From Thermodesulfobacteriota bacterium (GTDB lineage: Bacteria; Desulfobacterota; BSN033; UBA1163), in NCBI GenBank assembly GCA_049513055.1, contig JBEKWN010000008.1:21669-85668 (forward strand): 64,000 nt of DNA. Reading direction: 5' to 3'. The notes under the pieces were generated by a model that had not been told where the DNA came from, searched no databases, and worked only from the letters and a program-made list of their open reading frames with translations. Position 1 is the first letter of the stretch; every line of letters begins with the position of its first letter. The position numbers and the translations under genes were made by a program. Shown piece by piece: positions 19,028-64,000 of this stretch.

Positions 19028-19213
19028 TTACTCATTAAGGGGCTTATCCTTTTTGCCCACGAGCCTCGGGTCAATATTGCCTGATCCTCCGCAATCAGGA
19101 ATATAGCAAGTCACATCACTGAAGGTGCAGGCCTGCTTACAGGAAGGACATCGCTCAGGCACTGGATCGGCTCCAAATGTGTAACCACAATTTGAACATT
19201 TCCATTGAGTCAT
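19028..19213 (-). CDS. Rubredoxin-like Cys4 zinc-ribbon protein of 61 aa ([13 protein letters not shown]...CPSCKQ...)
   Basis: Strong RBS AGGAGGTGAG. The track ORF 19028..19333 is over-extended. Confidence 0.55.
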
Positions 19214-19233
19214 TGATCTCACCTCCTCTATTC

Positions 19234-19653
19234 CTAAAGAAAAAATGTAAGGAAAATCACACCCAGGACGATTTGAATCAAAACAAAGATAAAAGTACTG
19301 TAATTGATGACCATATGAATCAGGGCAAGGCAATTCGTTCCCTTTCCTTTAGAAAGCTTTCTTCCCAGGGCGACCCCGATGGAGAAGAGAAGGAGAATGA
19401 GAATCGCCAAATAGGCGTGGAGGCCCGAAGTAAAAATTTCCCCCTTCAGATAGAATAGAGCCCCGCCCCCCAATAAAAAGCCAATCCAGAGAAGGATATA
19501 AAATCTTTTGCCACATCGAATATGCTTCTGCCACGGGAAGTCCGAAGCGGATCCACGGCCCCTTCTGAATTGGAATCGTTTCCAACCCAAGTAACCGGTA
19601 TAGGCTCCTGAGAGGATCGCCAATAGGATGATGATGGGGTGAATGAACGCCAT
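19234..19653 (-). CDS. Small integral membrane protein, possibly DUF4079-like. Translationally coupled to the upstream cytochrome (TGAGATG).
   Basis: Likely start [11 protein letters not shown] at 19653. 4 TM helices. Confidence 0.45.
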
Positions 19654-19654
19654 C

Positions 19655-20596
19655 TCATTTCCCTCCCTCAATTTCTCCATTCCAACTGGCGACCGATTGG
19701 TCGGGCCTTCCCTCCATCTTGTAGAGAAGACTTGAATTCACCTTATATCGTTTTCCCGTTTCCAGAGAGATGGGGTATTCGGAGGTAACAGCTTTTTGGG
19801 GAGGCACCCCATTTTTCTTAAGGGTCGAGAAGATCTCTTCCTTGGAGAAGATTGTTTTTCCATCCGACTCCTTCACCTGAGTATTGAGGACAAACCGATC
19901 ATCCCCATATTTTCCAGTGGGCATGTTATGATCTGCCCCTCGGTTCGTGAGGGATATTTTAACCGACCCCTTTCCTGCCTCACCCGTGATCAGGGCTGCC
20001 TCTTTGAGGAGTTTCTCGTAACTTTGCATATGTTGGCCGACCATCCTATTCGACACAAACATAGAAATGGGAAAACCTTGTACTACTTTCCGCTCCACCC
20101 TTGGCATATGGCATTCCTGACAGGTCTTTTTTGAACCGCTTGCCTGCCATTCCTGAAAGGTCGGCATGTGGCATCCTGCGCAGAATTCGGATTTGAGCAT
20201 CGATTCATCCTGCTCGGATTTGTGCTTGGCCGTGAGCTTATAAGGGCCATAGATCATATTATTTTTGAGGTGGCAGGCAGTACAGTTGATCCCTTCCTCC
20301 TTATGGACTGGCCTGGTCTTTAGATTCTTTTCATCGGCAATCCCCTGAGCAGTATGGCAAATGATACACTCTTCGGCTCCATAGCTCTTCGATCCCTTTT
20401 TAAATGGGTCATTGATAAAAGCCTTGGCATGGAAGTCCTTCGACCACTCCTCATAGATCAGTTTATGACATTTGTTACACTCTGAGGACTTCACCGTCTT
20501 TTCACCCATCTCAAGAAGGTAATCGTATTTAGCCGCCACCAAGAATAACGAAACCAAAATCAATCCTAAAAAAACCAATTTTTTACTTCTTATCAT
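19655..20596 (-). CDS. Pentaheme c-type cytochrome with a signal peptide
   Basis: Five CxxCH motifs (CNKCH, CIICH, CTACH, CAGCH, CQECH). Confidence 0.8.
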   Translation of the reverse strand: MIRSKKLVFLGLILVSLFLVAAKYDYLLEMGEKTVKSSECNKCHKLIYEEWSKDFHAKAFINDPFKKGSKSYGAEECIICHTAQGIADEKNLKTRPVHKEEGINCTACHLKNNMIYGPYKLTAKHKSEQDESMLKSEFCAGCHMPTFQEWQASGSKKTCQECHMPRVERKVVQGFPISMFVSNRMVGQHMQSYEKLLKEAALITGEAGKGSVKISLTNRGADHNMPTGKYGDDRFVLNTQVKESDGKTIFSKEEIFSTLKKNGVPPQKAVTSEYPISLETGKRYKVNSSLLYKMEGRPDQSVASWNGEIEGGK

Positions 20597-21285: not shown

Positions 21286-22320
21286 CTATTCTATCCTCCC
21301 CACCCAAGAAAATTTAAAGACGAGATCTTCTCCATGCGGTGCCATGTCAATATCTTTAGTCAGATCCTTACCTGCAATATGACACCGCATCCTTTTCTCT
21401 CCCTGGAAGAGAGGGCTTGCCGAAATATCGTAGACTTTTCCCTTATAGGCAATGTAAATAGGTTTTCCTCCTGTGCCATCGAAATGTTGGAGTTCCTCGA
21501 GGGTGAAGGGTTTTAAACTCTCCATCGGGATCTCAGGTTTTACCTCCACCTTCTCCACTGGCTGGATCACTTCTTCTGCCGTTGCTTTGACGATCCCCAA
21601 TTCATCCTCTTGGAGATGGTCTCTTTCGCCCTCGACGATATGGAATCGTTCATCAAACCATTTGAACATCTGATGAGCTGTTTTGAAACCTAACCTTCTT
21701 CCGTTCAGCTCAATGCAGTCACTGATGATATCTACAAAACTGAAACCTTTCCAGAGAAGGGCTTCACGAATACAGGTTTTAAAGTGGTTGAGGTGATAGA
21801 CGGTTGTCCGGGCATAAAAATAGGGAGCTTGTTGGGTGAGGATGCAACCCAATCGAAGGGGCAGATACGTTTCTCCATGAGGTGAGGTGATGGTTTTCGT
21901 TCCCTTGGGTGTGGTCGGTCCGGCTTGGCCACCTGTCAATCCATAGATCTCGTTATCGTTACAGAAGACCGTGATGTTAGGATTTCTCCGGGAGGTGTGA
22001 AGGAGGTGGTTTCCTCCAATGCTTGCCAGATCGCCATCTCCGGAGAGGACAATGACATTGAGGTCTGGACGGACGGTCTTGATGGCCTCAGCCGAAGTCA
22101 GCGCTCGACCATGGGGAGTGTGAATCGCATCTAAGTTCATATATCCGGACATTCTTCCTGAACAACCAATTCCAGAGACAGCAACGGTATTTTGATAGTT
22201 CCAACCGAGTTCTTTGATGGCCATGGCCACATTCTTTAATACAGCACCAATGCCACAACCAGGGCACCAGGTGTGAGGGAACCGCCTCATCTTTAAGAGT
22301 TCTTTATAAGAACGATCCAT
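21286..22320 (-). CDS. 2-oxoacid:ferredoxin oxidoreductase beta (TPP-binding) subunit with a C-terminal cytochrome b5-like domain fusion
   Basis: True start MDRSYKE at 22320 overlaps the alpha stop (TGATG). CPGCG and GDGD TPP motifs. Last about 70 aa FDGTGGKPIYIAYKGKVYDISASPLF...HIAGKDLT are paralogous to the domain at 12859..13070. Confidence 0.85.
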   Translation of the reverse strand: MDRSYKELLKMRRFPHTWCPGCGIGAVLKNVAMAIKELGWNYQNTVAVSGIGCSGRMSGYMNLDAIHTPHGRALTSAEAIKTVRPDLNVIVLSGDGDLASIGGNHLLHTSRRNPNITVFCNDNEIYGLTGGQAGPTTPKGTKTITSPHGETYLPLRLGCILTQQAPYFYARTTVYHLNHFKTCIREALLWKGFSFVDIISDCIELNGRRLGFKTAHQMFKWFDERFHIVEGERDHLQEDELGIVKATAEEVIQPVEKVEVKPEIPMESLKPFTLEELQHFDGTGGKPIYIAYKGKVYDISASPLFQGEKRMRCHIAGKDLTKDIDMAPHGEDLVFKFSWVGRIE

Positions 22321-23366
22321 CACCTTCCCGCTCCCTTCAAACACTCCTCGATCTGACTCTGAATCCATTTGAGCTTGAACCCTCCCCCTAAACAGGGGAC
22401 TTTCATCACCTTTCGGCAAATGGCGCATTCCACCCAACTCGCATACTGCCCATCACTCCCTTCGACCACAATGATGTGTCGATAGGATTGAGTCATCTCC
22501 CTTAATTCCTTCTCCAGGACAGGATAGATGCGGATGGGTCGAAATATGGAGAAACGATCTTTTAAAGATGAGATGATCCTCGAGGTGATTCCAAAGGCGA
22601 TGAGCAGAGTTTCAGAATTCTTACAGGGAAGATATTCGAAAAGAGGATACTTCTCGGCAACACGATCATGACGGTCTTTCAATTCCCAGAACCATCCCCG
22701 ATAGATCTCTGGATCATTGGTTTTCACATTTCCCAACTTATCATGGGCAGTCCCAGTAAAGAGCCGCTGGCCTCTGCCCAAAGGTTCTTTGGAGCGGGGA
22801 ATGACTTCTATGGCTATCCTTTCAAGATCTACCATCTCATAGAGGTGGGAAAGGAAGGCATCGGCAAGGAGGATGACCGGTGAGAGGGAATCTTCTGCTG
22901 CATTGAAGGCTTTGGCAGTTAGGCAAAAACATTCCTCCACCGAATTTGGATAGAAGGCGATAGGATAACAATCGCCTGCACTTCCTGCCTTAATCTGAAG
23001 AAGATCCGATTGAGCGGGCTGAGTGGGCATCCCCGTGGATGGCCCCACCCTCATGGAATTGACGAAGACGCAGGGAGCCTCCACCACATGACCCCATCCC
23101 AAGGCCTCCTGCATCAGAGAAAATCCTGGTCCAGAAGTGGCGGTAAAAGCTTTGGCACCTGCCAAGGAAGCAGAGATGGTGGCGATAGCTGCTGCAATTT
23201 CGTCCTCAGCCTGGAGAAATCGAAATTCTTTGTTTTCCTCTGAATAGAGGGCGGCCTGTTGTAAAATCTCAGAGGTCGGACTGATCGGATAACCAGCAAA
23301 GTAACTGGCGCCGGCCCGAATGGCTCCTTGTAAGATGGCTTCATTTCCGGAAACGAGGCGCTTCAT
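22320..23366 (-). CDS. 2-oxoacid:ferredoxin oxidoreductase alpha subunit
   Basis: GYPISPTSEI and FTATSGPGF motifs typical of Por/Kor A. Confidence 0.85.
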   Translation of the reverse strand: MKRLVSGNEAILQGAIRAGASYFAGYPISPTSEILQQAALYSEENKEFRFLQAEDEIAAAIATISASLAGAKAFTATSGPGFSLMQEALGWGHVVEAPCVFVNSMRVGPSTGMPTQPAQSDLLQIKAGSAGDCYPIAFYPNSVEECFCLTAKAFNAAEDSLSPVILLADAFLSHLYEMVDLERIAIEVIPRSKEPLGRGQRLFTGTAHDKLGNVKTNDPEIYRGWFWELKDRHDRVAEKYPLFEYLPCKNSETLLIAFGITSRIISSLKDRFSIFRPIRIYPVLEKELREMTQSYRHIIVVEGSDGQYASWVECAICRKVMKVPCLGGGFKLKWIQSQIEECLKGAGR

Positions 23367-54286: not shown

Positions 54287-54817
54287 ATGAAAAGGATCAC
54301 ATATATATTGATTGTTTTCGCATGCTTGCTACTTGTTGGTTCGTTTATGGCATATGCGGGGGAGGGGCGAGGAGCTCCATATTCTGGTTCCAAAGAGTAT
54401 GAATGCATGAAACAGCTTATGGGTGTATGGGAAGGTACTTCCAACATGGGGAAAGAGGGGCAACCGGTAAGGGTGGAGTATCGCCTGACAGCTGGGGGCA
54501 GCGCAATTGTCGAAACGCTCTTCCCGGGTACTCCCGAAGAGATGATTTCAGTTTACCATGATAATAAGGGGAAACTTTCAATGACTCACTATTGCATGCT
54601 CCAAAATCAACCTTCCATGAAGCTCGTAAAGGCCAGTGCAGACACACTCGATTTTGTGTTTGCTGGAGGGAGTGGCATTAATCCGAAGAAGGACCCTCAT
54701 ATGCATGCTTTAACCATTTCATTTGTCGATAAGGATCACATCGTCCAAAATTGGAGTTTGTTTGAAGATGGCAAAGAAAAGGAAGTGACGAGACTGAATC
54801 TATCTCGTGTGCGTTAA
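54287..54817 (+). CDS. Secreted hypothetical protein (signal peptide), possibly a DUF1579/lipocalin-like beta-barrel
   Basis: Signal peptide MKRITYILIVFACLLLVGSFMAYA. Confidence 0.4.
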   Translation: MKRITYILIVFACLLLVGSFMAYAGEGRGAPYSGSKEYECMKQLMGVWEGTSNMGKEGQPVRVEYRLTAGGSAIVETLFPGTPEEMISVYHDNKGKLSMTHYCMLQNQPSMKLVKASADTLDFVFAGGSGINPKKDPHMHALTISFVDKDHIVQNWSLFEDGKEKEVTRLNLSRVR

Positions 54818-54859
54818 ACGTTAGATAGAACGCGGAAGGAGATTATCAATGTCAAATTT

Positions 54860-56857
54860 TTAATTTGGACTCTGATCTTTGGAATTTGACATGAGGTTCG
54901 TCATTTTCAGTTCTTCCAATTCTATAGCGAGGAATTCCCAGAGTTGGGTAAGTTCTCTCACCTGCTCTTTAACTTGTTTATGAGTCTGAACGGTTTCGTA
55001 AGTCTCTTGCTGATTTAAGTAGAGATTGGGGTCAGAAAGTCTTTGATTAAGATGATCCAGTTTTTGGGTAGCCTCATGCAAAGATTTTTCTACTTCCTGA
55101 AATCTCTTTTCAAGACCGGAGAGTTGCCTTTTAAGTTGATCCATCTCCTGAGCTTTTTTTCGCTTCTCCTCTTTTGTTTTGTATGGAGATTTCTTTTTTA
55201 GAAGAGAGGGCGATGCAAGCGTCGCCCCTACATCTTTTGGGGTCTCTTCCAATTGGACTTGCTGTTTTTTATAAAGGTAATAGTCGTAATTTCCAGGATA
55301 GAGATGAGGGATTCCGCGATCGATTTCGATTATTTTATTGGTGATCTCATTGATCAGATGGCGGTCGTGAGTGATTAGACAGATCGTCCCTTGAAATTGT
55401 TTCAGTGCCATCTCCAAAACATTTCGAGAAGGGATGTCGAGATGACTGGTTGGTTCGTCAAAGAGAAGAAAATTGGCGGGCTTGAGGAGCATCTTTGCCA
55501 AAATCAGTCGGCTCTTCTCGCCACCGCTCAATACAGAGACTTTCTTTTCAATTTCATCTCCGCCGAAGAGAAAAGTTCCCAATAGGGTCCGGAGTTCGGT
55601 CTGGCTTTCATCTGTTGCAACTGAGAGGAGTTCTTCAAAGACTGTATTTTCTGGACGTAGGATGTCGAACTGATGCTGGGCAAAGTAGGCGTGGGTCACA
55701 TCCTTTCCTAAAATTACCTCACCTTCTTCAAAATCGAGAACACCGGCCAGGATCTTGAGAAGGGTAGATTTGCCTGCTCCATTGGGACCCACTAAAGCCA
55801 CTTTGTCTCCCCGGTAGAGATTAAGATCAATCCCTTGATAGACGACTGTTTCGCCATAACTTTTGTGAAGATTTTTAACCTCCACCACTTTATGACCACT
55901 TCTTTTAGGAGCAGGGAAGTGGAATCGAATCTCTTTCTTTCCCTCCGGAAGTTCAATCCGCTCAATTTTTTCGAGCATCTTGATTCGGCTCTGAACCTGG
56001 CTCGATTTGGTGTTTTTAGCCCGGAATCGCTCGATAAACCTTTCAGTTTGCTCAATTTTCCTCTGCTGGGTTTTATAAGTAGCCTCGAGGATTTGCCTTC
56101 GGGCTTCTTTCTCCTCTAAATAATGGTCGTAGTCACTGTAATAGAGGTCGATCTTTTGAGCTTCAATCTCTGCAATCCAATCAATGAGGTGATTGAGAAA
56201 GACACGATCGTGTGAGACGATCACCATGGCGCCAGGATAACTGATTAAAAATTCCTCCAACCAGATGAGGGAGGTAAGATCTAAGTGGTTGGTCGGCTCA
56301 TCGAGAAGAAGAAGGTCAGGAGATTGAAGAAGGATTTTTGCCAAGGCAATTCGCATCAGCCATCCACCGCTCAGTTCATCGGTCGCCCGGTCAAAATCCA
56401 TTTCTTTAAATCCTAATCCTTGAAGGATACGCTTCGCCTCAGCCTCCAAACCATATCCTCCGAGGAGGGTATACCGCTCCTGGAGTTTTCCATATTCCTT
56501 TGCCAGCTTTTCCTGTTTTTTCGGATCATCGATGGATGAAAGTTCTTCCTCCAGAATCTTCATCTTGTCCTGAAGGGAAGTGATGTTTGTCAAACTTTTT
56601 AAAACCTCATCCAGAACACTATTGCCTCTGAAAGAAATGACTTCCTGAGGGAGATAGCCGATCTTTACCCCTTTGGCAATGAGGATCTCCCCTTCGTCAA
56701 TGGATTCCTCTCCTAAGATCATTCTAAAGAGGGTCGTCTTCCCGGAGCCATTGGGGCCGATGAGGCCCACTCGATCCCTCACTCCAATCTGAAGGGAGCA
56801 GTCCTTGAAGAGGACCTTGCTTCCAAACTGTTTCTGAACATGGTTGAGCGTGATCAT
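54860..56857 (-). CDS. ABC-F family ATPase (two ABC cassettes, Uup/EttA-like, C-terminal coiled coil)
   Basis: Two Walker A and signature motif sets. No TM domain. Confidence 0.85.
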   Translation of the reverse strand: MITLNHVQKQFGSKVLFKDCSLQIGVRDRVGLIGPNGSGKTTLFRMILGEESIDEGEILIAKGVKIGYLPQEVISFRGNSVLDEVLKSLTNITSLQDKMKILEEELSSIDDPKKQEKLAKEYGKLQERYTLLGGYGLEAEAKRILQGLGFKEMDFDRATDELSGGWLMRIALAKILLQSPDLLLLDEPTNHLDLTSLIWLEEFLISYPGAMVIVSHDRVFLNHLIDWIAEIEAQKIDLYYSDYDHYLEEKEARRQILEATYKTQQRKIEQTERFIERFRAKNTKSSQVQSRIKMLEKIERIELPEGKKEIRFHFPAPKRSGHKVVEVKNLHKSYGETVVYQGIDLNLYRGDKVALVGPNGAGKSTLLKILAGVLDFEEGEVILGKDVTHAYFAQHQFDILRPENTVFEELLSVATDESQTELRTLLGTFLFGGDEIEKKVSVLSGGEKSRLILAKMLLKPANFLLFDEPTSHLDIPSRNVLEMALKQFQGTICLITHDRHLINEITNKIIEIDRGIPHLYPGNYDYYLYKKQQVQLEETPKDVGATLASPSLLKKKSPYKTKEEKRKKAQEMDQLKRQLSGLEKRFQEVEKSLHEATQKLDHLNQRLSDPNLYLNQQETYETVQTHKQVKEQVRELTQLWEFLAIELEELKMTNLMSNSKDQSPN

Positions 56858-56906
56858 AGATATTTTAAAGGAGGAACATTTTAAATATCAGGGATTGTCG
56901 AAAGGT

Positions 56907-57251
56907 TTAAGTATCGTACTTATCAAAATTATAACCCGCTTTCCTGTAATCCTCCAAGGCACGGTTCTTCAAATCCTCTCGCTTCGTTTTTTCTGCTTCC
57001 TTATCGGCTAATTCAGCCGCATGGCTCCATTTCCCCTCTTTTTCGTAATCCCTGATTTTCCGATCTGTTTCTGTGAGCGGACGTCCTTTGATCACTACGG
57101 TAGGAGCGAAGAGAACTCGGGAAATAGGATTTTTACATTGGGGGCAGAAGGTTAAGACAGATTCAGTCATCCTCTGGATTATCTCAAAACCTCGCCTGCA
57201 GTAATTACAACTTTTTTCTGAATCAATAGCTTTGTATGCGTACGTTGGCAT
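56907..57251 (-). CDS. FmdB-family zinc-ribbon regulatory protein
   Basis: MPTYAYKA...C..C...CPQC, the FmdB N-terminal signature. Confidence 0.6.
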   Translation of the reverse strand: MPTYAYKAIDSEKSCNYCRRGFEIIQRMTESVLTFCPQCKNPISRVLFAPTVVIKGRPLTETDRKIRDYEKEGKWSHAAELADKEAEKTKREDLKNRALEDYRKAGYNFDKYDT

Positions 57252-57282
57252 TATTAAAACCGTGTCTCGTGTCCGGAAAAGG

Positions 57283-58107
57283 ATGATTCCCTACCCAAAC
57301 CTTTATATTTACGAGATTTCTGGAGCGATTTCAGATTCAAAGAATTTTTTCAAGGAAGACTTCATCGGCTGTTGGAATGAAGGGGAGGCCTCCTTCCTTT
57401 TCTTTTCTCAACCCCACGATGAGGAGGTGGAGTCATTTGTCGAAAAGAAGTGATACCCTCTTGTCTCAAGAAATGTCCTTGACTACAAGGCCTGGCAGGC
57501 CGGTGAAGAATTGAAACCTTTTAAAGTGGGTAATCTTGTCATCTCTCCCCCTTGGGAAAATGGAAGAGTCGAAGAAGGGGAGGTCTTGGTTCATTTAGAT
57601 CCCTGTGTTGTCTTTGGTACAGGTTATCACCCAACAACTCGAACCTGCCTTAAAGCCCTTTGGGAGATTTATCAAAAAGAGAGGCCGAAAAAAGTTTTGG
57701 ACCTTGGAACAGGCTCAGGGATCCTTGCCCTGGCTGCTGCAAAATGGGGAGCTGAAAAGGTGCTTGCCATTGACTGTAATGAGCTGGCTGTGGAGACGGC
57801 GTTACGTAATGTATCGTACAATGGAGAATCTCAACGGATTGAGGTGAGGATGGGAAAAGCGGAGGGTTTTATTGAAGAGGAAGCAGATTTAGTTTGTGCC
57901 AATATCCATCTTCAGGTCATTGAGTCTCTATTAAAGAAAAGGGCCTTCTTCAAGAAAAGATGGTTTATCCTTTCAGGGATCTTTGAAAAAGATGCGAAAA
58001 AGATTGAGAGGCGATTGATCCAAAGATCCGTTGAAATCGTTCAGAGGGTACAAGAGAAAAACTGGTTGACCTTGGTTGGTTTAAACAGGAAGGGAAAGTT
58101 GAATTAA
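57283..58107 (+). pseudogene. prmA: Ribosomal protein L11 methyltransferase PrmA interrupted by an in-frame TGA at 57451..57453
   Basis: Track ORFs 57232..57453 and 57511..58107 are in the same frame, separated only by TGA. The joined sequence matches PrmA (GCWNEGEASFLFF ... LDYKAWQAGEELKPFKVGNLVISPPWE ... DPCVVFGTGYHPTT ... LDLGTGSGILA). Confidence 0.65.
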
Positions 58108-58260
58108 AATGCTATTGACTTCGATTTTTCATTGTGTTAAAAAAATCACATTTTATCCTCACTTAAATCCCAAAAATTTAAATTTTCTTTAAATTTTGAC
58201 AAAATAACCCTCATTCTCATCGTAAGAGGGAGGAGTAATTTTTAAAATTTTGGGGGAACT

Positions 58261-60231
58261 ATGAAATCGAAGTTCAAAAGATTATATCTTATTTGTCTCA
58301 TCATCTCTGTCTCGCTCTTTTTAGGTTCAGGAGTGTTGCGGGCAGCAACACCCGCTCCTGAAAAAGAAGGTGCCAAGTCCGCAGAGGTGACCAAACCTTC
58401 TGAACCTGTGAAGAAAGGGGAAAAATTTGTCGTCAAGGGTCGAGAATATTGCTATGAGTGTATTGACAACTCTGAATGTATGGGTTGCCATAGAAAAATC
58501 AGCGAGAGGAGGTTTGCCCAGTCCGTTCATGGAGCCAACTCCTGCAACAGTTGCCACTGGGATATCACGGATGTCAAGGCCCATGCCAAAGCGAGAGGGG
58601 CAAGCATTTATGCAGAACCCGTCACCTGTCATCGATGTCATAAGAAGGAAGGGGCAGAACATTATGCAAGCGCCCATTTCATCAATGACATTCAATGCAA
58701 AGACTGCCATAAAGACATCCACGAGATGACTCCGTGGAAAGGGGATAAAGTCCGAGTCATCCAAAAATGTACGACCTGCCACTCCGATGATGGTTATGCT
58801 GAGAGCGTCCACGGCAAAGCCGTCCTCGATGGAAATCCAGATTCAGCCACCTGCAGCGATTGCCACGGCCTCCATAAGATTCCCTTATTAAAAGGGGACG
58901 AACCCAAGACAGTGGCATTCCGGAAGGAGTTTCATACAGAAGTTTGCCAGAAATGTCATGCAGACAAGGAGATGATGGAGAGAAACAAGGTTTTTCTCAT
59001 CGCCACTCAGACCTATTACGAAAGTTATCATGGAAAGGTTGAGCATCTGGGCTACCCAAAATTAGTAGCGGGTTGTGCTGACTGCCACGGGTTTCACAAC
59101 ATTCTGCCTCAAGATAATCCAAAGTCTCTCATCTCTGATAAAAGGTTGGTAGAGACCTGCGGCAAATGCCACCCAGGAGCCAATGCCAACTTCGTCCAGT
59201 TCATCACCCATGCCACCCATACCGATCCAGAAAGAGAGCCAGTGCTTTATGGAACCTTCGTCCTGATGACCGGCCTCCTCGTTTCTGTCTTTGGAGTATT
59301 CTGGTTCCATGCCTTCCTCTGGTGGCGAAAGGACTTCTGGGAAAAGAGGGAGTTGAGGGCCAAAGGGATCTTTTTCCCGCAACACGTGAGACCCGATGAA
59401 GCAGGGCACATCTATCGTCGATTTAGCTTATTCGACATTGTGCTCCACTTTACGATGATGGTGACCTTTATCTGCCTTGTCCTGACCGGACTGCCATTGA
59501 AATTTTCCCATGCCCCTTGGGCCAGTGGTTTGATGCACTTTTTAGGAGGAGCTAGGATGGCTGGCTTGATCCATCGCATTTGTGCAGGCATTACTTTTGC
59601 TTATTTCGGAACGACCATGGCCTACATCTTCTATTTCCTCTTCTTTAAAAAGATCCATGGGAATCCCAATCCCTTGCAGAGACTTTTCGGCCCGGATTCA
59701 CTCTGCCCACGATGGAAAGATGTTCAAAATATCGTCGGGATGATCCAATGGTTCTTTAACAAAGGGCCGAAACCCCAGTTTGACCGATGGACCTATTGGG
59801 AGAAATTCGATTTTCTTGCTGTCTTCTGGGGAATGTTCGCCATCGGGCTTTCGGGATTGATGCTCTGGCTTCCAGAATTCTTCACCATCTTTTTACCCGG
59901 ATGGATTCTCAACATCGCCACGATCGTCCACTCGGATGAAGCGCTCTTGGCTTCCGGCTTCATCTTCACGGTTCATTTCTTCAACACCCATTTTCGACCT
60001 TCGAAGTTCCCGATTGATACAGTGATCTTCACAGGAAGGTTCCCGAAATATGAACTGGTGGAGGAACGGCTGGAACAGTATAATCGTCTGCTGGCGGAGA
60101 AGAAGTTGGAGACCTATCGGGATAAATACCCCAGCGTGGCGGCAGACCTCTTCTCAACGATTATGGGATTTGCCATGCTGGCCATTGGGCTTTTCTGCGT
60201 CTTCCTGATTGCGTGGGAATTCTTGGTATAA
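58261..60231 (+). CDS. CbcL-like quinol-oxidizing cytochrome: N-terminal periplasmic nonaheme c-type domain fused to a C-terminal dihaem cytochrome b membrane domain (FdnI/HydC-like)
   Basis: Nine CxxCH motifs in residues 60-350. A 5 TM His-rich C-terminal half follows ([26 protein letters not shown]). Confidence 0.8.
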
Positions 60232-60338
60232 AAATGTCTTTGCATCGTTGAGTCATAGAGTCAAAATTACGTCTTTGGGTCATGGCGTCTTTTATTTTTA
60301 AATTAAGACCCACGACTCTAGGACACTAAGATGTTTTT

Positions 60339-61922
60339 TTAGTTGGAAATTTTGCAGCCGATCTTTTCGAGATAAGCCATATAGTTAAAGGTGGGGCTTT
60401 GATCTTTGGTATGGCAGTTTCGGCAGATACCAAGGGTCACTTTCCTCTCTAAACTTCCCCTTCCCGGATGTCCCTTCCCTTCTCCGTGACAGGCTTCACA
60501 CTGCACCCCTTGAAGGTAAAAAGGGATTTCCATCACGGTTGCATACTCTCCAATCTTCCCATAGCCTGTGGAGTGGCACAACAGGCACTCCTCTTGAGCA
60601 TATTTGGGGGAAGCAGCGATGGTCTGGGAGGCCTTGGCATGTTTGGTCTTGAGCCAATTTCTGTAGTTCACTTCGTGGCATTTTTTGCAGGAGATCGCTC
60701 CAGCAAAAGGACTCGTTTTAGGAATTCGGGCGATCATCTCTTTCTCCGGTAAGTCCTTTCCAACTTCGACTGCCACTTTTGGTTTGTATAGCTTTGCCGA
60801 CTCAGCACGATATGTCTCCAGTTCCTTGATAATTTTTGGATCATCTGCCACAGCGAGTTGAACAGGGATGGCGATATGTTTGTAAAAATTTTTGTCTTCA
60901 GAGGCAAGAAGCACCTTCTCCAATTCTTTCTGTTTGGACTCCAAGATTCTCAGCTCCTTCAGCTTCATCTCATCCTGTTTTCCTGATTTTGCCATCTCCA
61001 TTTTAATTTGTGTTGAATGGGAGATCAGTCTTTCCAATTTCTTCTCTATCTCTTCCCGTTCACCAGAAATCATAAATTTAATAGGTCTTTTGGTATCCAC
61101 CAGAGAGTAATCCACTCGGCCCAAATATCCTCCTCTGGGCTCCAATCGATAAATAGCGGTTCCATCCACTCTTTCCATAACCACCCTTTTGGATTCGCCC
61201 CCTCCTCCTAAGATCAGATCGATGTCGCGATTTTCCCTGGCCAGCTTCTTATCTTTTGATTCGCCCAATTGAGAGAGGCAGGCGATTAAATCGCAATATT
61301 CCCGGAGGCTTTTGGTAAGGGTTTTTGATGTTGAAAAAGGGTCGAGAATAGATAATCCGGGATCCCTCTCCTGAAGGGTTGAGTTGAAAGTATCATCTAA
61401 GAGTCCAAATATCCCAATCTTTAGCCCTGCGATTTCTTTGATCACATAAGGTTTGAAGACACCCTTTCCAGTTTTTTTGTCCACGAGGTTGGCTGAGACA
61501 AAGGAGAACTTCGCCTTTTGGCTCACTTCAGAGAGGAATTTAAGCCCCATCATCAAATCTTTTTCGCCCACATTGACCGCATCGTATCCCATTTCGTTAT
61601 AGGATTGGACGAGGAGGTCAACACGAAGAAGGGCATCCCTGCGCTTGGTTTCTGTTTGAGGAGGTTTTCGAAAAAGAAGATTTCCGGTGTCGAGGAGAAG
61701 GATCTTTCTGCCTTCTTTCTTTATCTGATTGATGAGCGTCGATTTCTTGGCGACACCGCCAAGAGGGTTTCTGAATCACCCACAGGGCTCGACCTCACCC
61801 ATTACATCATTGGTATAAAGGATGCTGAATTGATTTTTGGGGTTGGCCTGAACAAGAGGGTTTTGGGTTAGCATTAGAATTAAAGTTGAAATGAAAAGAA
61901 AATATACTTTTCTCAATTTCAA
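60339..61922 (-). pseudogene. Secreted calcineurin-like metallophosphatase (5'-nucleotidase/UshA-like N domain) fused to a C-terminal tetraheme cytochrome c. The N-terminal region is disrupted by an in-frame TGA (61777..61779) and a frameshift near 61650..61675.
   Basis: Track ORF 60339..61592 starts mid-domain (MGYDAVNVGEKDL). Upstream, manual translation gives a TTG start with a GGAAGGAG RBS, a signal peptide, ILYTNDVMGEVEPCG-TGA-FRNPLGGVAKKSTLINQIKKEGRKILLLDTGNLLF, then a frame switch into KPPQTETKRRDALLRVDLLVQSYNEMGYDAV. C-terminal CKKCH, CLLCH, CEACH, CRNCH. Confidence 0.6.
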
Positions 61923-62025
61923 AACAAACTCCTTCCTTAAGAGATTGTATTTATTTAACCAATGGTTTTTCCGAAAGCAAGTCCATGAACGAATCTTTTC
62001 GGAGGCTTTTAGAGGGGAAACAGGG

Positions 62026-64000
62026 ATGACCCTTGAAATAATTTTGAAACTTTGTAAGAATAAGCCGTCGGGGGGAATCCGGGGGTTCCTTATGGAAACG
62101 TTAAAAGATTTTTATGATTTGGTAAAAACCTTTTGGATTGATGTTTTCAATGCTTTCAGGAGGGGAACTGAAACTCACCTTAAGGCCATAAAGATTTTCC
62201 TTGTTTTTTGCATCATTGTTTTTGTTATCCTCCTCGGAGTTCTCCTAAAATTTACAGAGTCCTCCACTTTCTGCGGCCTCTGTCACCAGATGAATGCCTA
62301 TATGGAGTCGTGGAGGACTTCCAGCCACAAGCATGTGGTATGCACAAAATGTCACTATGAACCTGGATTTATCAATCATTTGAGAGGGAAGTGGGTGGAT
62401 GGCCAGGTATCGCTGGCCTATTTTCTTTCCGGTAAAAGGCCAAACACGCCTCATGCACAGATCAGCGATGCAAGCTGCCTTCAGAAGGGTTGCCATCAGA
62501 CCGATGATCTGAAGGGAAATATGATTTACAAGAATGTGGCCTTCTCACACGGAAAACATTTAGGTGAGTTGAGAAGGGGGATGAATCTCCGTTGCACAAG
62601 CTGCCACGCTCAACTTGTTCAAGGATTGCATCTCACCGTTCATGAAATCAACTGTTTCATCTGTCACTATTACAAGGCCGGTCCGAAAGGAGAGGAAGAG
62701 TGCATTTCATGTGCCATCGGAGGGTGTACCTCCTGCCATGTCGAGCCTAAAGGGGATATCAAGGTCAAAGGTTGGAGCTTCAATCACAGAAAGTATATTG
62801 CAAGAGGGGTCGCCTGTGAGAAGTGCCATCTCAGTGTGGTTCAGGGAGATGGCCATGTCCCTGAAGGAAAGTGTCTGGAATGTCATAATGAACCTGTCCT
62901 CCTGAGTACGAAATATACCTCTCAATTTATGCATAAGAAACATGTCACCGACCACAAGATCGAATGCTCAAGTTGCCACACTCCTCTCCGCCATGAGATT
63001 GGGCAGATCCCCACCAGCACCCACGTTCCATCCAATTGTGATAAGTGTCATAACAAGGAGATGCATTTAGGACCCAGAGATTTTTACAGGGGGAGCGGAG
63101 GGATTGGCGTTCCAGACTCCCCCAGCCTCATGTTTACAACCAATGTCGACTGTATCGCCTGTCATCGAAGGGCCGAAGAAAGCAAGGCTGCACTCCACAC
63201 GACGAGATATGCGGAAAGGGTGATCGGCGAAGCCTGTGTAGACTGCCACGGGGAGGGATTCGATGATACCTTGAAGCAATGGAAAGCCCTCCTTTCCAAA
63301 TCAGAGAATGAGACGAATCAGAGGATTTTCAATGTTCAGAAAGTATTATATGAGTTTGAAAAGGCCAATGGAAGCACGGCCACCTTCAAAAAAGCCCAAA
63401 ACCTACTCAATGAAGGCCGCCATAATTACAGCTTTGTCCTTTTGGGGCAAGGCGTTCACAATGTTGAATATGCTTTCCAACTTCTCAATGCAGCGAACAA
63501 TAAGACAGAGCAGGTTTTAGCAATCATCGATAAAGGTTACAAACCTCAGGAATTTAGAACCCGCATGACCTGTACCACGCTGTGCCATGTTGGGATAGAG
63601 AAGCGGACCGTTCCTTTTAATGACATCAAATTTTCCCATGAAACCCACATTGCAGGCAATGGACAGAAGTGCTCGGATTGCCATTCTTCTCGTGAAAATC
63701 ACGGCAAAACGTTAATGAAAAATTGTGCACAATGCCATCACGGGAAGGAAATTAAGAAAGTGAAATGCGAGGATTGTCATGCCTCCATCAAAAAGCTCAT
63801 TCAAGGGAAAGGAGGCATTGGCGTTCAAGAGAGACCGAGTAATAAGTTGGATGTGGTCGAATGCATTGATTGCCATCGGGGTGTATTGGCGAAAAAGAAA
63901 GACACTTTTGATGCGATTAAGAAACGTTGCATTGAATGTCATGACCAGAGTTATGGGGAGATGGTGGTCCGATGGAAAGCGACCTCTGAAGATTTGTTGA
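62026..64000 (+). CDS. Large membrane-anchored multiheme cytochrome c (NapC/NirT/NrfH-like N-terminal quinol-dehydrogenase module plus a long multiheme extension, at least 16 CxxCH). Partial: it runs off the window end.
   Basis: Manual translation shows an open frame from ATG 62026 to position 64000 with no stop. It is absent from the ORF track for that reason. N-terminal TM helix, then CGLCH...CTKCH...CTSCH NrfH-like spacing, then many further CxxCH. Confidence 0.8.
   Translation, partial: MTLEIILKLCKNKPSGGIRGFLMETLKDFYDLVKTFWIDVFNAFRRGTETHLKAIKIFLVFCIIVFVILLGVLLKFTESSTFCGLCHQMNAYMESWRTSSHKHVVCTKCHYEPGFINHLRGKWVDGQVSLAYFLSGKRPNTPHAQISDASCLQKGCHQTDDLKGNMIYKNVAFSHGKHLGELRRGMNLRCTSCHAQLVQGLHLTVHEINCFICHYYKAGPKGEEECISCAIGGCTSCHVEPKGDIKVKGWSFNHRKYIARGVACEKCHLSVVQGDGHVPEGKCLECHNEPVLLSTKYTSQFMHKKHVTDHKIECSSCHTPLRHEIGQIPTSTHVPSNCDKCHNKEMHLGPRDFYRGSGGIGVPDSPSLMFTTNVDCIACHRRAEESKAALHTTRYAERVIGEACVDCHGEGFDDTLKQWKALLSKSENETNQRIFNVQKVLYEFEKANGSTATFKKAQNLLNEGRHNYSFVLLGQGVHNVEYAFQLLNAANNKTEQVLAIIDKGYKPQEFRTRMTCTTLCHVGIEKRTVPFNDIKFSHETHIAGNGQKCSDCHSSRENHGKTLMKNCAQCHHGKEIKKVKCEDCHASIKKLIQGKGGIGVQERPSNKLDVVECIDCHRGVLAKKKDTFDAIKKRCIECHDQSYGEMVVRWKATSEDLL

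What the first reader, a model, noticed from the sequence alone, without database searches (positions are those of the whole stretch)
57283..58107. prmA (ribosomal L11 methyltransferase) contains an in-frame TGA
The two track ORFs 57232..57453 and 57511..58107 are in one frame and separated only by TGA at 57451..57453. The residues on both sides align with the PrmA N-domain and the linker. TGA is used as a normal stop elsewhere in the window (korA, the RND gene), so this is a nonsense mutation, a sequencing error or a read-through event. A selenoprotein is unlikely: no Cys-pair context and no SECIS-like hairpin were noted.
Basis: seen in the sequence. Interest (0 to 1): 0.55.

Follow-up and report, generated by a model that had tools for sequence, protein, structure and literature searches.

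The report
Real nonsense mutation inactivating prmA
The in-frame TGA is a genuine G-to-T nonsense mutation (Gly57 to stop), seen in many independent assemblies of this uncultured Thermodesulfobacteriota strain, that breaks the dispensable ribosomal-protein-L11 methyltransferase gene; it is ordinary gene decay, not recoding.

Summary
TGA at 57451-57453 interrupts a 274-codon PrmA reading frame (57283-58107).

- **Derived change:** ten ~99% identical contigs, and more than 120 intact orthologues, carry GGA (Gly) or another sense codon at this position. None carries Cys.
- **Not a sequencing error:** contigs from at least six other sample accessions match the window exactly over 9.6 kb and carry the same TGA. 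The truncated products are on record from about 26-48 contigs.
- **No sign of recoding:** TGA ends 16 of 46 long ORFs in the window. There is no SECIS-like hairpin, no Rfam match, and the site is variable across the family.
- **Stepwise decay:** intact (GGA57, Asp195), then TGA57, then TGA57 plus Asp195Gly. The window alone also lacks 105 nt of upstream DNA holding a conserved promoter-like block.
- **Repeated loss in the clade:** sister lineages carry their own lesions: AGA63 to TGA, TAC68 to TAG, a 2-nt deletion near codon 20, and an A6-to-A7 frameshift at codons 135-137. Neighbouring genes stay intact, and intact prmA alleles show dN/dS of 0.12-0.17.

Best reading: a recent, real loss-of-function allele of a gene known to be dispensable, in a clade where it is lost repeatedly. 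Low interest. A functional split of the enzyme is not excluded but is unsupported.

The parts
57283..57453 (+). 5' remnant of prmA: 56 sense codons (most of the N-terminal L11-recognition domain) ending in the premature TGA
   Evidence: The identical 56/59-aa product is on record from 26 contigs and as NCBI MGA2315348.1. In the AF2 model of the intact orthologue the stop falls after the N-domain helix and before its last strand.
57451..57453 (+). Premature opal stop; a G>T change at 57451 converts GGA (Gly57) to TGA
   Evidence: All ten ~99% identical contigs L001-L010 have G at this base. L016-L019, L031 and L032 share the T. The lesion is visible in alignment A3.
57454..58107 (+). Rest of the prmA frame: end of the N-domain, linker helix and class-I SAM methyltransferase domain (FGTGYHPTTR, DLGTGSG, CANI motifs), ending in TAA at 58105-58107
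   Evidence: Pfam PF06325 covers residues 64-266. PDB sequence and fold matches are to T. thermophilus PrmA.
57511..58107 (+). ORF that gene callers report for the 3' part (198 aa from TTG 57511; 193 aa from GTG 57526). These are the only candidate restart codons. GGTGA at 57502-57506 lies 4 nt before the TTG.
   Evidence: Products P0285-P0287 and P0291 are on record from about 48 contigs, including NCBI MGA2315349.1. Actual restart is untested.
57866..57866 (+). Second derived change: A>G, GAT to GGT (Asp195Gly)
   Evidence: L031/L032 have TGA57 but still Asp195. Asp is invariant in 25 close orthologues. In 114 diverse family representatives the site is only D 41, E 21 and G 5, so it is not proven to be damaging.
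57275..57276 (.). Junction of a 105-nt deletion (111 nt relative to L001-L009) in the Zn-ribbon/prmA intergenic region. It removes the upstream ATG (MKR...) and a conserved TTGTCA-N18-TGcTATAAA block.
   Evidence: L016-L018 match the window exactly on both sides but keep the segment. The block is conserved in relatives sharing 82-87% amino-acid identity. The consensus promoter scan did not call it, so promoter function is inferred.
56907..57251 (-). Divergent neighbour, a Zn_ribbon_8 (FmdB-type) gene. It is intact, but only 24 nt of its native upstream DNA remain.

Best explanation
A single G>T transversion at 57451 changed Gly57 (GGA) of prmA to an opal stop. Translation therefore ends after 56 residues. 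The product lacks the last strand of the L11-recognition domain, the linker and the whole SAM-dependent catalytic domain, so this strain most likely no longer trimethylates ribosomal protein L11. The allele is real and is carried by a natural population recovered in many metagenomes. It arose very recently on a background identical to intact sister alleles. It was followed by Asp195Gly and, in the window's assembly only, by loss of 105 nt of upstream DNA holding a conserved promoter-like block. The same gene has been broken independently in sister lineages, which fits a gene under weak selection. Shown: the lesion, its derived state, its presence in independent assemblies, the order of changes, and the independent lesions elsewhere. 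Inferred: loss of enzyme activity, promoter function of the deleted block, and relaxed selection as the cause.
For: - **TGA and frame:**
- **Orthologues:** they have Gly (or R/E/A/D) at codon 57, and all ten ~99% identical contigs have GGA.
- **Independent assemblies:** L016-L018 are 100% identical to the window over 2,910 + 6,725 nt, including the TGA. These come from ENA ERZ27249708 and JGI 3300025409 (one contig seen in 7 samples), 3300009614 and 3300018020.
- **Truncated products on record:** 26 contigs for the N fragment; 21+19+7+1 contigs for the C fragment, including an NCBI MAG.
- **Order of changes:** L031/L032 carry TGA57 with Asp195.
- **Neighbouring genes:** private differences are 28 synonymous to 8 non-synonymous, versus 0 to 2 in prmA.
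- **Intact alleles:** dN/dS is 0.12-0.17.
- **Independent lesions:** L021 AGA63>TGA, L022 TAC68>TAG, and L023-L030 a 2-nt deletion near codon 20. An A7 frameshift at codons 135-137 appears in nine protein variants.
- **Specific to prmA:** the ABC-F, Zn-ribbon and cytochrome neighbours are intact in those contigs.
- **Normal stop usage:** TGA ends 16 of 46 long ORFs.
- **Known biology:** PrmA is non-essential in E. coli and T. thermophilus, and its N-domain provides substrate recognition (PMC10293735, citing Vanet 1994, Cameron 2004 and Demirci 2007).
Against: - No expression, proteomic or L11-methylation data exist, so loss of function is inferred.
- The broken gene shows almost no further decay: dS is 0 against the intact sister allele. 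A still-functional arrangement therefore cannot be excluded on sequence grounds.
- Gly195 occurs in some family members, so that change may be neutral.
- The 105-nt deletion is seen only in the window and could be an assembly artefact.
- The 'independent' assemblies may partly re-use the same read sets (JGI, ENA and Logan).
- No raw reads were inspected.
Confidence: 0.85

Rival explanations
1. Functional split: after termination at UGA57, ribosomes restart at TTG 57511 or GTG 57526 and make a free-standing catalytic domain, with or without the 56-aa N fragment. That domain keeps some methyltransferase role, and stops in this region are tolerated or even selected.
For: Three independent nonsense mutations (codons 57, 63, 68) fall within 12 codons at the N-domain/linker boundary. 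A GGTGA lies 4 nt before TTG 57511. The downstream 198 codons are still open, and the TGA genotype is found on more contigs than its intact sister. A stand-alone catalytic domain of a PrmA has been crystallised (3GRZ, 205 residues).
Against:
- Other lineages carry frameshifts at codons ~20, ~112, 135-137 and ~225, which destroy or remove the catalytic domain.
- The putative restart context encodes invariant residues (AGEELKPF), so it is not evidence of selection for restart.
- The N-domain is what docks L11.
- The TGA lineage went on to acquire Asp195Gly and, in the window, lost its upstream region.
Confidence: 0.08
2. Translational recoding: UGA57 is read through (near-cognate Trp, a suppressor Gly, or selenocysteine), giving full-length PrmA.
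For: UGA is the leakiest stop codon in bacteria (general knowledge). The ancestral codon is GGA, and UGA means Gly in genetic code 25. The frame is open on both sides.
Against: - TGA ends 16 of 46 long ORFs.
- No homologue has Cys at the site, and the site is variable: G/D/E/N/A/K.
- The nearest downstream hairpin is only -2.5 kcal/mol. The 50-nt downstream segment folds no better than 12% of random window segments (z = 0.31).
- Rfam finds nothing.
- The base after the stop is U, the efficient-termination context in E. coli (own knowledge).
- Sister lineages are broken by TAG and by frameshifts, which recoding of UGA cannot explain.
Confidence: 0.04
3. Sequencing or assembly error: the true genome has GGA.
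For: It is a single-base difference from close relatives. The window's own assembly has an unexplained 105-nt gap nearby. Exact-pattern scans of two collections did not find the TGA allele.
Against: The same base is present in contigs from several samples and three assembly pipelines, with 100% identity over 9.6 kb. It also occurs on a second haplotype (L031/L032). The truncated products are recorded on dozens of contigs. No indel or other frame-breaking difference separates the window from relatives in the flanking 6 kb.
Confidence: 0.03

Closest known systems
PrmA, ribosomal protein L11 methyltransferase (T. thermophilus 1UFK/2NXC/3CJT; E. coli prmA)
   Same: Two-domain layout: a small N-terminal substrate-recognition domain, a linker helix and a class-I SAM methyltransferase domain. 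Pfam PF06325 scores 173 bits. The fifteen best PDB fold matches of the intact orthologue's model are all T. thermophilus PrmA. The FGTGxHxTT, DLGTGSG and ANI motifs are present.
   Different: The window's copy is cut by a stop at codon 57. It scores below the NCBIfam equivalog cut-off (154.7 against 183.15). It shares only about 25% identity with the solved structures. Activity on L11 is untested.
Bacterial unitary pseudogenes made by point nonsense or frameshift mutations in dispensable genes
   Same: A derived lesion in an otherwise conserved gene. Intact orthologues are under purifying selection. Further degenerative changes follow, and independent lesions occur in related lineages.
   Different: It is very young, with no silent divergence from the intact allele. 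It occurs in a free-living uncultured Thermodesulfobacteriota population rather than a host-restricted pathogen undergoing genome-wide decay. Neighbouring genes are untouched.
Bacterial selenoprotein genes (in-frame UGA plus a SECIS hairpin, e.g. fdhF)
   Same: An in-frame UGA inside a conserved enzyme gene.
   Different: No Cys or Sec homologues at the site, which is a variable surface position. There is no stable hairpin at the required distance. The UGA is absent from relatives that are 99% identical.
Genetic code 25 (UGA = Gly; Gracilibacteria / Absconditabacteria)
   Same: TGA stands where relatives have a Gly codon (GGA).
   Different: TGA is used as a terminator for a third of the genes in the window. 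Coding density under table 11 is normal. The lineage is Thermodesulfobacteriota by the names that sources give to the homologues.

Membership tests
PrmA (L11 methyltransferase) family | Match to Pfam PF06325 above the gathering score | tested here: met
   173.2 bits against a cut-off of 22, covering residues 64-266 and profile positions 90-293 of 296.
PrmA (L11 methyltransferase) family | NCBIfam equivalog score (TIGR00406 / NF001785) | tested here: not met
   154.7 against a cut-off of 183.15, and 126.3 against 188. The N-domain is not matched by these profiles. This supports family membership but not a curated equivalog call.
PrmA (L11 methyltransferase) family | Two-domain fold: N-terminal L11-recognition domain plus class-I SAM methyltransferase domain | tested here: met
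   Sequence alignment to 1UFK residues 24-250 spans the stop. The AF2 model of intact orthologue P0001 has pLDDT 74. Its top 15 Foldseek PDB hits are all T. thermophilus PrmA over about 270 columns, with E about 3e-13.
PrmA (L11 methyltransferase) family | SAM-binding and substrate motifs (DxGxGxG; FGTGxHxTT; (A)N-I/L) | tested here: met
   DLGTGSG, FGTGYHPTTR and CANIH are present in the window frame and invariant in close orthologues. D164 and N207 are conserved in 109 and 112 of 114 diverse representatives.
PrmA (L11 methyltransferase) family | Trimethylates ribosomal protein L11 | not testable with these tools
   Needs biochemistry or proteomics.
Selenoprotein gene | Cys (or Sec) aligned with the UGA in homologues | tested here: not met
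   Gly, Arg, Glu, Ala or Asp in 25 close orthologues. In 114 diverse representatives the eight commonest states (G 32, D 15, E 11, gap 8, N 7, A 6, K 6, T 4) do not include Cys.
Selenoprotein gene | SECIS-type stem-loop just downstream of the UGA | tested here: not met
   Only a 5-bp hairpin of -2.5 kcal/mol lies 12 nt downstream. The 50-nt downstream fold of -12.6 kcal/mol is matched by 12% of window segments. The z-score is 0.31. Rfam finds nothing.
Selenoprotein gene | selA/selB/selC/selD present in the genome | not testable with these tools
   Only the 64-kb window is available, and it contains no tRNA gene.
Stop-codon reassignment (codes 4 / 25) | TGA not used as a terminator; genes fragmented under table 11 | tested here: not met
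   16 of 46 long ORFs end in TGA, and long ORFs alone cover 78% of the window. No other split genes were found.
Pseudogene by nonsense mutation | The lesion is derived, and intact orthologues are under purifying selection | tested here: met
   GGA in L001-L010; dN/dS of 0.12-0.17 among intact alleles.
Pseudogene by nonsense mutation | The lesion is real (reproduced in independent data) | tested here: met
   Raw reads were not inspected.
Pseudogene by nonsense mutation | No functional product is made | not testable with these tools
   Needs transcript, protein or L11-methylation data.

The most novel reading that the evidence does not exclude
prmA is not just drifting. It is being inactivated or split repeatedly, and possibly adaptively, in this Thermodesulfobacteriota clade. 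Nonsense mutations concentrate at the N-domain/linker boundary (codons 57, 63, 68), so that a free catalytic domain, restarted at TTG 57511, survives with altered targets. Alternatively, loss of L11 methylation itself is favoured.
Probability: 0.08. Interest if true: 0.45.

Novelty: new member of a known kind. Interest (0 to 1): 0.15.

Why it matters
Mostly as a clean negative. An in-frame TGA in a conserved gene could suggest selenocysteine, read-through or a variant genetic code. Here it can be shown to be a real, very recent nonsense allele. For annotation, the two ORFs should be joined and flagged as one prmA pseudogene rather than listed as 'hypothetical protein' plus 'L11 methyltransferase'. 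The one wider point is that natural populations of this clade lose prmA again and again while keeping neighbouring genes intact. That is field evidence for the laboratory finding that L11 methylation is dispensable, and the function of that methylation remains unknown.

Tried and rejected
1. **Selenocysteine or read-through.** Folding of the downstream RNA and Rfam at gathering and at E<=10 gave nothing.
2. **Variant genetic code.** Rejected by stop-codon usage.
3. **Exact-pattern scans.** Scans of genome contigs and metagenome contigs for the TGA allele and for a strain-specific 28-mer found only a 91-95% identical relative (L011). For a time this wrongly suggested the allele was unique. The exact-protein look-up of the neighbouring cytochrome then recovered contigs identical to the window.
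4. **'Three private lesions' view.** I first read the TGA, Asp195Gly and the deletion as all private to the window. Searches corrected this: the first two are shared with other assemblies, and only the deletion is private.
5. **Asp195 as an invariant catalytic residue.** Rejected after sampling 114 diverse representatives (D 41, E 21, G 5).
6. **191/196/208-aa fragments as more linker stops.** These fragments in the P0094 lineage looked like further linker stops. DNA showed a 2-nt deletion near codon 20 instead, which weakens the linker-hotspot idea.
7. **Promoter scan.** The consensus scan found no promoter in the deleted segment or in the window's remaining intergenic DNA. The promoter reading rests only on conservation of a TTGTCA-N18-TGcTATAAA block.
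8. **Second prmA copy in the window.** None found.
9. **Primary PrmA structure and genetics papers.** Not held in the library. A review was cited instead.

Full report
**1. Observation**

The sequence shows TGA at 57451-57453. The ORFs 57232..57453 and 57511..58107 share a frame. Translating 57232-58107 gives one continuous reading frame with a single internal stop...VESFVEKK*YPLVSRNVLDYKAWQ.... From ATG 57283 the read-through product is 274 residues.

- It matches Pfam PrmA (PF06325) at 173 bits over residues 64-266.
- It stays below the NCBIfam equivalog cut-offs (TIGR00406: 154.7 against 183.15).
- It aligns with T. thermophilus PrmA (1UFK and related entries), residues 24-250, straight across the stop.
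- An AlphaFold2 model of the intact orthologue P0001 (pLDDT 74) finds T. thermophilus PrmA structures as its 15 best PDB fold matches over about 270 columns.

In that model the stop falls after the N-domain helix and before the last N-domain strand and the linker helix.

**2. What the relatives have at this codon**

A protein search returned 951 homologues. The best 120 are all uninterrupted proteins of about 274 residues and 80-99% identity, which their sources name L11 methyltransferase from Thermodesulfobacteriota MAGs.

- In an alignment of 25 of them, the position of the stop holds Gly (most), Arg, Glu, Ala or Asp.
- Among 114 diverse family representatives it holds G 32, D 15, E 11, N 7, A 6, K 6 and T 4. 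Cys is not among the eight commonest states.
- Ten contigs carrying the 99%-identical orthologue were fetched. All have GGA where the window has TGA, so the lesion is one G>T change at 57451.

A variable surface position without Cys homologues is not what a selenocysteine site looks like. The RNA downstream is also unremarkable:

- The nearest hairpin is 5 bp at -2.5 kcal/mol.
- The 50-nt downstream fold of -12.6 kcal/mol is equalled by 12% of window segments.
- The z-score against shuffles is 0.31.
- Rfam finds nothing at the gathering threshold or at E<=10.
- The window holds no tRNA gene.

**3. Is it an error? No**

Exact-pattern scans for the TGA allele in the genome and metagenome collections found nothing. 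A strain-specific 28-mer found only a 91-95% identical relative.

Looking up the exact product of the neighbouring cytochrome gene (58261-60231) changed the picture. That look-up returned contigs from ENA ERZ27249708 and from JGI 3300025409 (one contig seen in 7 samples), 3300009614 and 3300018020. The index lists this product in 43 blocks of the collection.

- L016-L018 are 100% identical to the window over 54366-57275 and 57276-64000, including the TGA.
- The truncated products are on record independently. The 59-aa N fragment is on 26 contigs. The 193/198-aa C fragment is on 21+19+7 contigs.
- An NCBI MAG annotates a 56-aa 'hypothetical protein' (MGA2315348.1) next to a 198-aa 'L11 methyltransferase' (MGA2315349.1). 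This MAG is probably the window's source.
- In the compared 6 kb the window shows no frame-breaking difference in the ABC-F, Zn-ribbon or cytochrome genes.

A base-calling or consensus error would not recur across samples and three assembly pipelines. The TGA is a real allele. One caveat: some JGI, ENA and Logan assemblies may draw on the same read sets, and no reads were inspected.

**4. A stepwise series**

| Stage | Contigs | Codon 57 | Residue 195 | Upstream segment |
|---|---|---|---|---|
| Intact | L001-L010 | GGA | Asp (GAT) | present |
| Nonsense | L031 (ERZ27250117), L032 (SRR7027740) | TGA | Asp | present |
| Nonsense + missense | L016-L019 | TGA | Gly (GGT, A>G at 57866) | present |
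| Window | window only | TGA | Gly | 105 nt missing |

- L031 and L032 differ from L001 in prmA at 57451 only. L016-L019 are covered.
- The window's missing 105 nt lie between 57275 and 57276 (111 nt relative to L001-L009).
- That segment holds the upstream ATG (MKR...) and a block, AAATTGTCAAGAGAGAAAACCTTATGCTATAAAT. This block stays conserved in relatives sharing only 82-87% amino-acid identity, while the rest of the spacer diverges.
- I read the block as a -35 / extended -10 promoter. The consensus scan did not call it, so this is an inference.
- All relatives have a spacer of at least 100 nt here; the window has 31 nt.
- Asp195 is invariant in close orthologues but not across the family (D 41, E 21, G 5 of 114). 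Its loss may be neutral.
- Of the window lineage's differences from L001-L010 in the neighbouring genes, 28 are synonymous and 8 non-synonymous. In prmA the ratio is 0 to 2.

**5. The same gene is broken elsewhere in the clade**

Cluster look-ups showed many shortened PrmA products. DNA for some of them shows independent lesions:

- L021: AGA63>TGA.
- L022: TAC68>TAG.
- L023-L030 (eight contigs from eight samples, themselves diverged): a 2-nt deletion near codon 20. This lineage also carries replacements in the otherwise invariant FGTGYHPTTR motif.
- Nine protein variants end in ...ERPKKSFGPWNRLRDPCPGCCKMGS. That is exactly what one extra A in the A6 run at codons 135-137 produces.
- Other products point to frameshifts near codons 112 and 225.

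In the contigs with a broken prmA, the ABC-F, Zn-ribbon and cytochrome neighbours are intact. The only loci with broken neighbours are L012, L013 and L020, which come from visibly error-prone assemblies. Intact prmA alleles give dN/dS of 0.12-0.17, so the gene is functional where it is whole. There is only one prmA in the window.

**6. Interpretation**

The best-supported reading is a recent, genuine loss-of-function allele. Termination at codon 57 leaves a 56-residue fragment without the catalytic domain.

According to the review PMC10293735, the N-domain provides substrate recognition and the C-domain catalysis, and deletion of prmA is tolerated in E. coli and T. thermophilus. Repeated independent lesions in natural lineages fit that dispensability.

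Two rivals remain at low probability.

- **A split but working enzyme (about 0.08).** Three nonsense mutations sit within 12 codons, and a GGTGA lies 4 nt before TTG 57511. But the clustering is only about p = 0.05 after allowing for how the alleles were found. Other lineages are hit elsewhere in the gene. The restart context simply encodes invariant residues.
- **Read-through or recoding (about 0.04).** This has no positive evidence and cannot explain the TAG and frameshift alleles.

Sequencing error (about 0.03) is effectively excluded.

**7. Comparison and verdict**

The gene is a PrmA-family member by Pfam score, motifs and fold. It is not certified by the NCBIfam equivalog cut-off, and its activity is untested. 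The feature itself is an ordinary young pseudogene. It is not a selenoprotein gene, not a code change and not an artefact.

It is a new instance of a known kind of event, of low general interest. It has two practical uses. The two annotated ORFs should be merged and flagged as one pseudogene. The recurrent loss of prmA in the wild adds population-level support for the dispensability of L11 methylation.

Noticed in passing
window 57275|57276: The window lacks 105 nt of the Zn-ribbon/prmA intergenic region. Contigs otherwise 100% identical over 9.6 kb (L016-L018) and all relatives have this segment. It holds a conserved TTGTCA-N18-TGcTATAAA block and the upstream ATG. No repeat flanks the junction. 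It could be a real sub-population deletion or an assembly artefact.
   Followed up: yes
L021:1-178; L022:227-442; L023-L030 upstream of the 191-aa ORF: Independent prmA lesions in sister lineages: AGA63>TGA, TAC68>TAG, and a 2-nt deletion near codon 20. An A6-to-A7 frameshift at codons 135-137 is seen in nine protein variants (P0370, P0374, P0376-P0378, P0380, P0381, P0273, P0275). Three of the lesions lie within 12 codons at the domain boundary.
   Followed up: partly
window 21286-22437 (-): The 2-oxoacid:ferredoxin oxidoreductase beta-type subunit (TPP_enzyme_C) carries a C-terminal cytochrome-b5-like haem-binding domain (Pfam Cyt-b5, E = 3e-6). It sits next to the POR_N subunit gene 22320-23366.
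   Followed up: no
window 58261-60231 (+) and 60339-61592 (-): Directly downstream of prmA lies a 656-aa fusion of a multihaem c-type cytochrome with a cytochrome b561-type membrane domain. It is followed by a cytochrome c554-like gene. The arrangement Zn-ribbon / prmA / cytochrome is conserved in all relatives examined.
   Followed up: no
L012, L013 (ENA ERZ25039515) and L020 (GCA_017885465.1): These related contigs show many split genes (ABC-F, c554 cytochrome, NrfD, molybdopterin oxidoreductase). L020 also has an NN gap inside prmA. These are error-prone assemblies, so broken genes there are not evidence of decay.
   Followed up: partly
search collections (against 45, 47): Exact-pattern scans of metagenome contigs and genome contigs returned no hit for sequences that are present verbatim in JGI and ENA contigs retrieved by exact-protein look-up. 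A negative pattern scan is therefore not evidence of absence.
   Followed up: yes
L023-L029, Zn_ribbon_8 gene: In the lineage with the codon-20 frameshift, the divergent Zn-ribbon gene is called at 176-179 aa instead of 114 aa. Either it has a 5' extension or the caller chose a different start.
   Followed up: no
window 19028-19333 (-) and 19234-19680 (-): A small rubredoxin-like ORF (RUBY_RBDX motif) and an overlapping 148-aa membrane ORF lie in the same frame series as the upstream cytochrome gene 19655-20596. I checked them as a possible second split gene; they are separate genes.
   Followed up: yes
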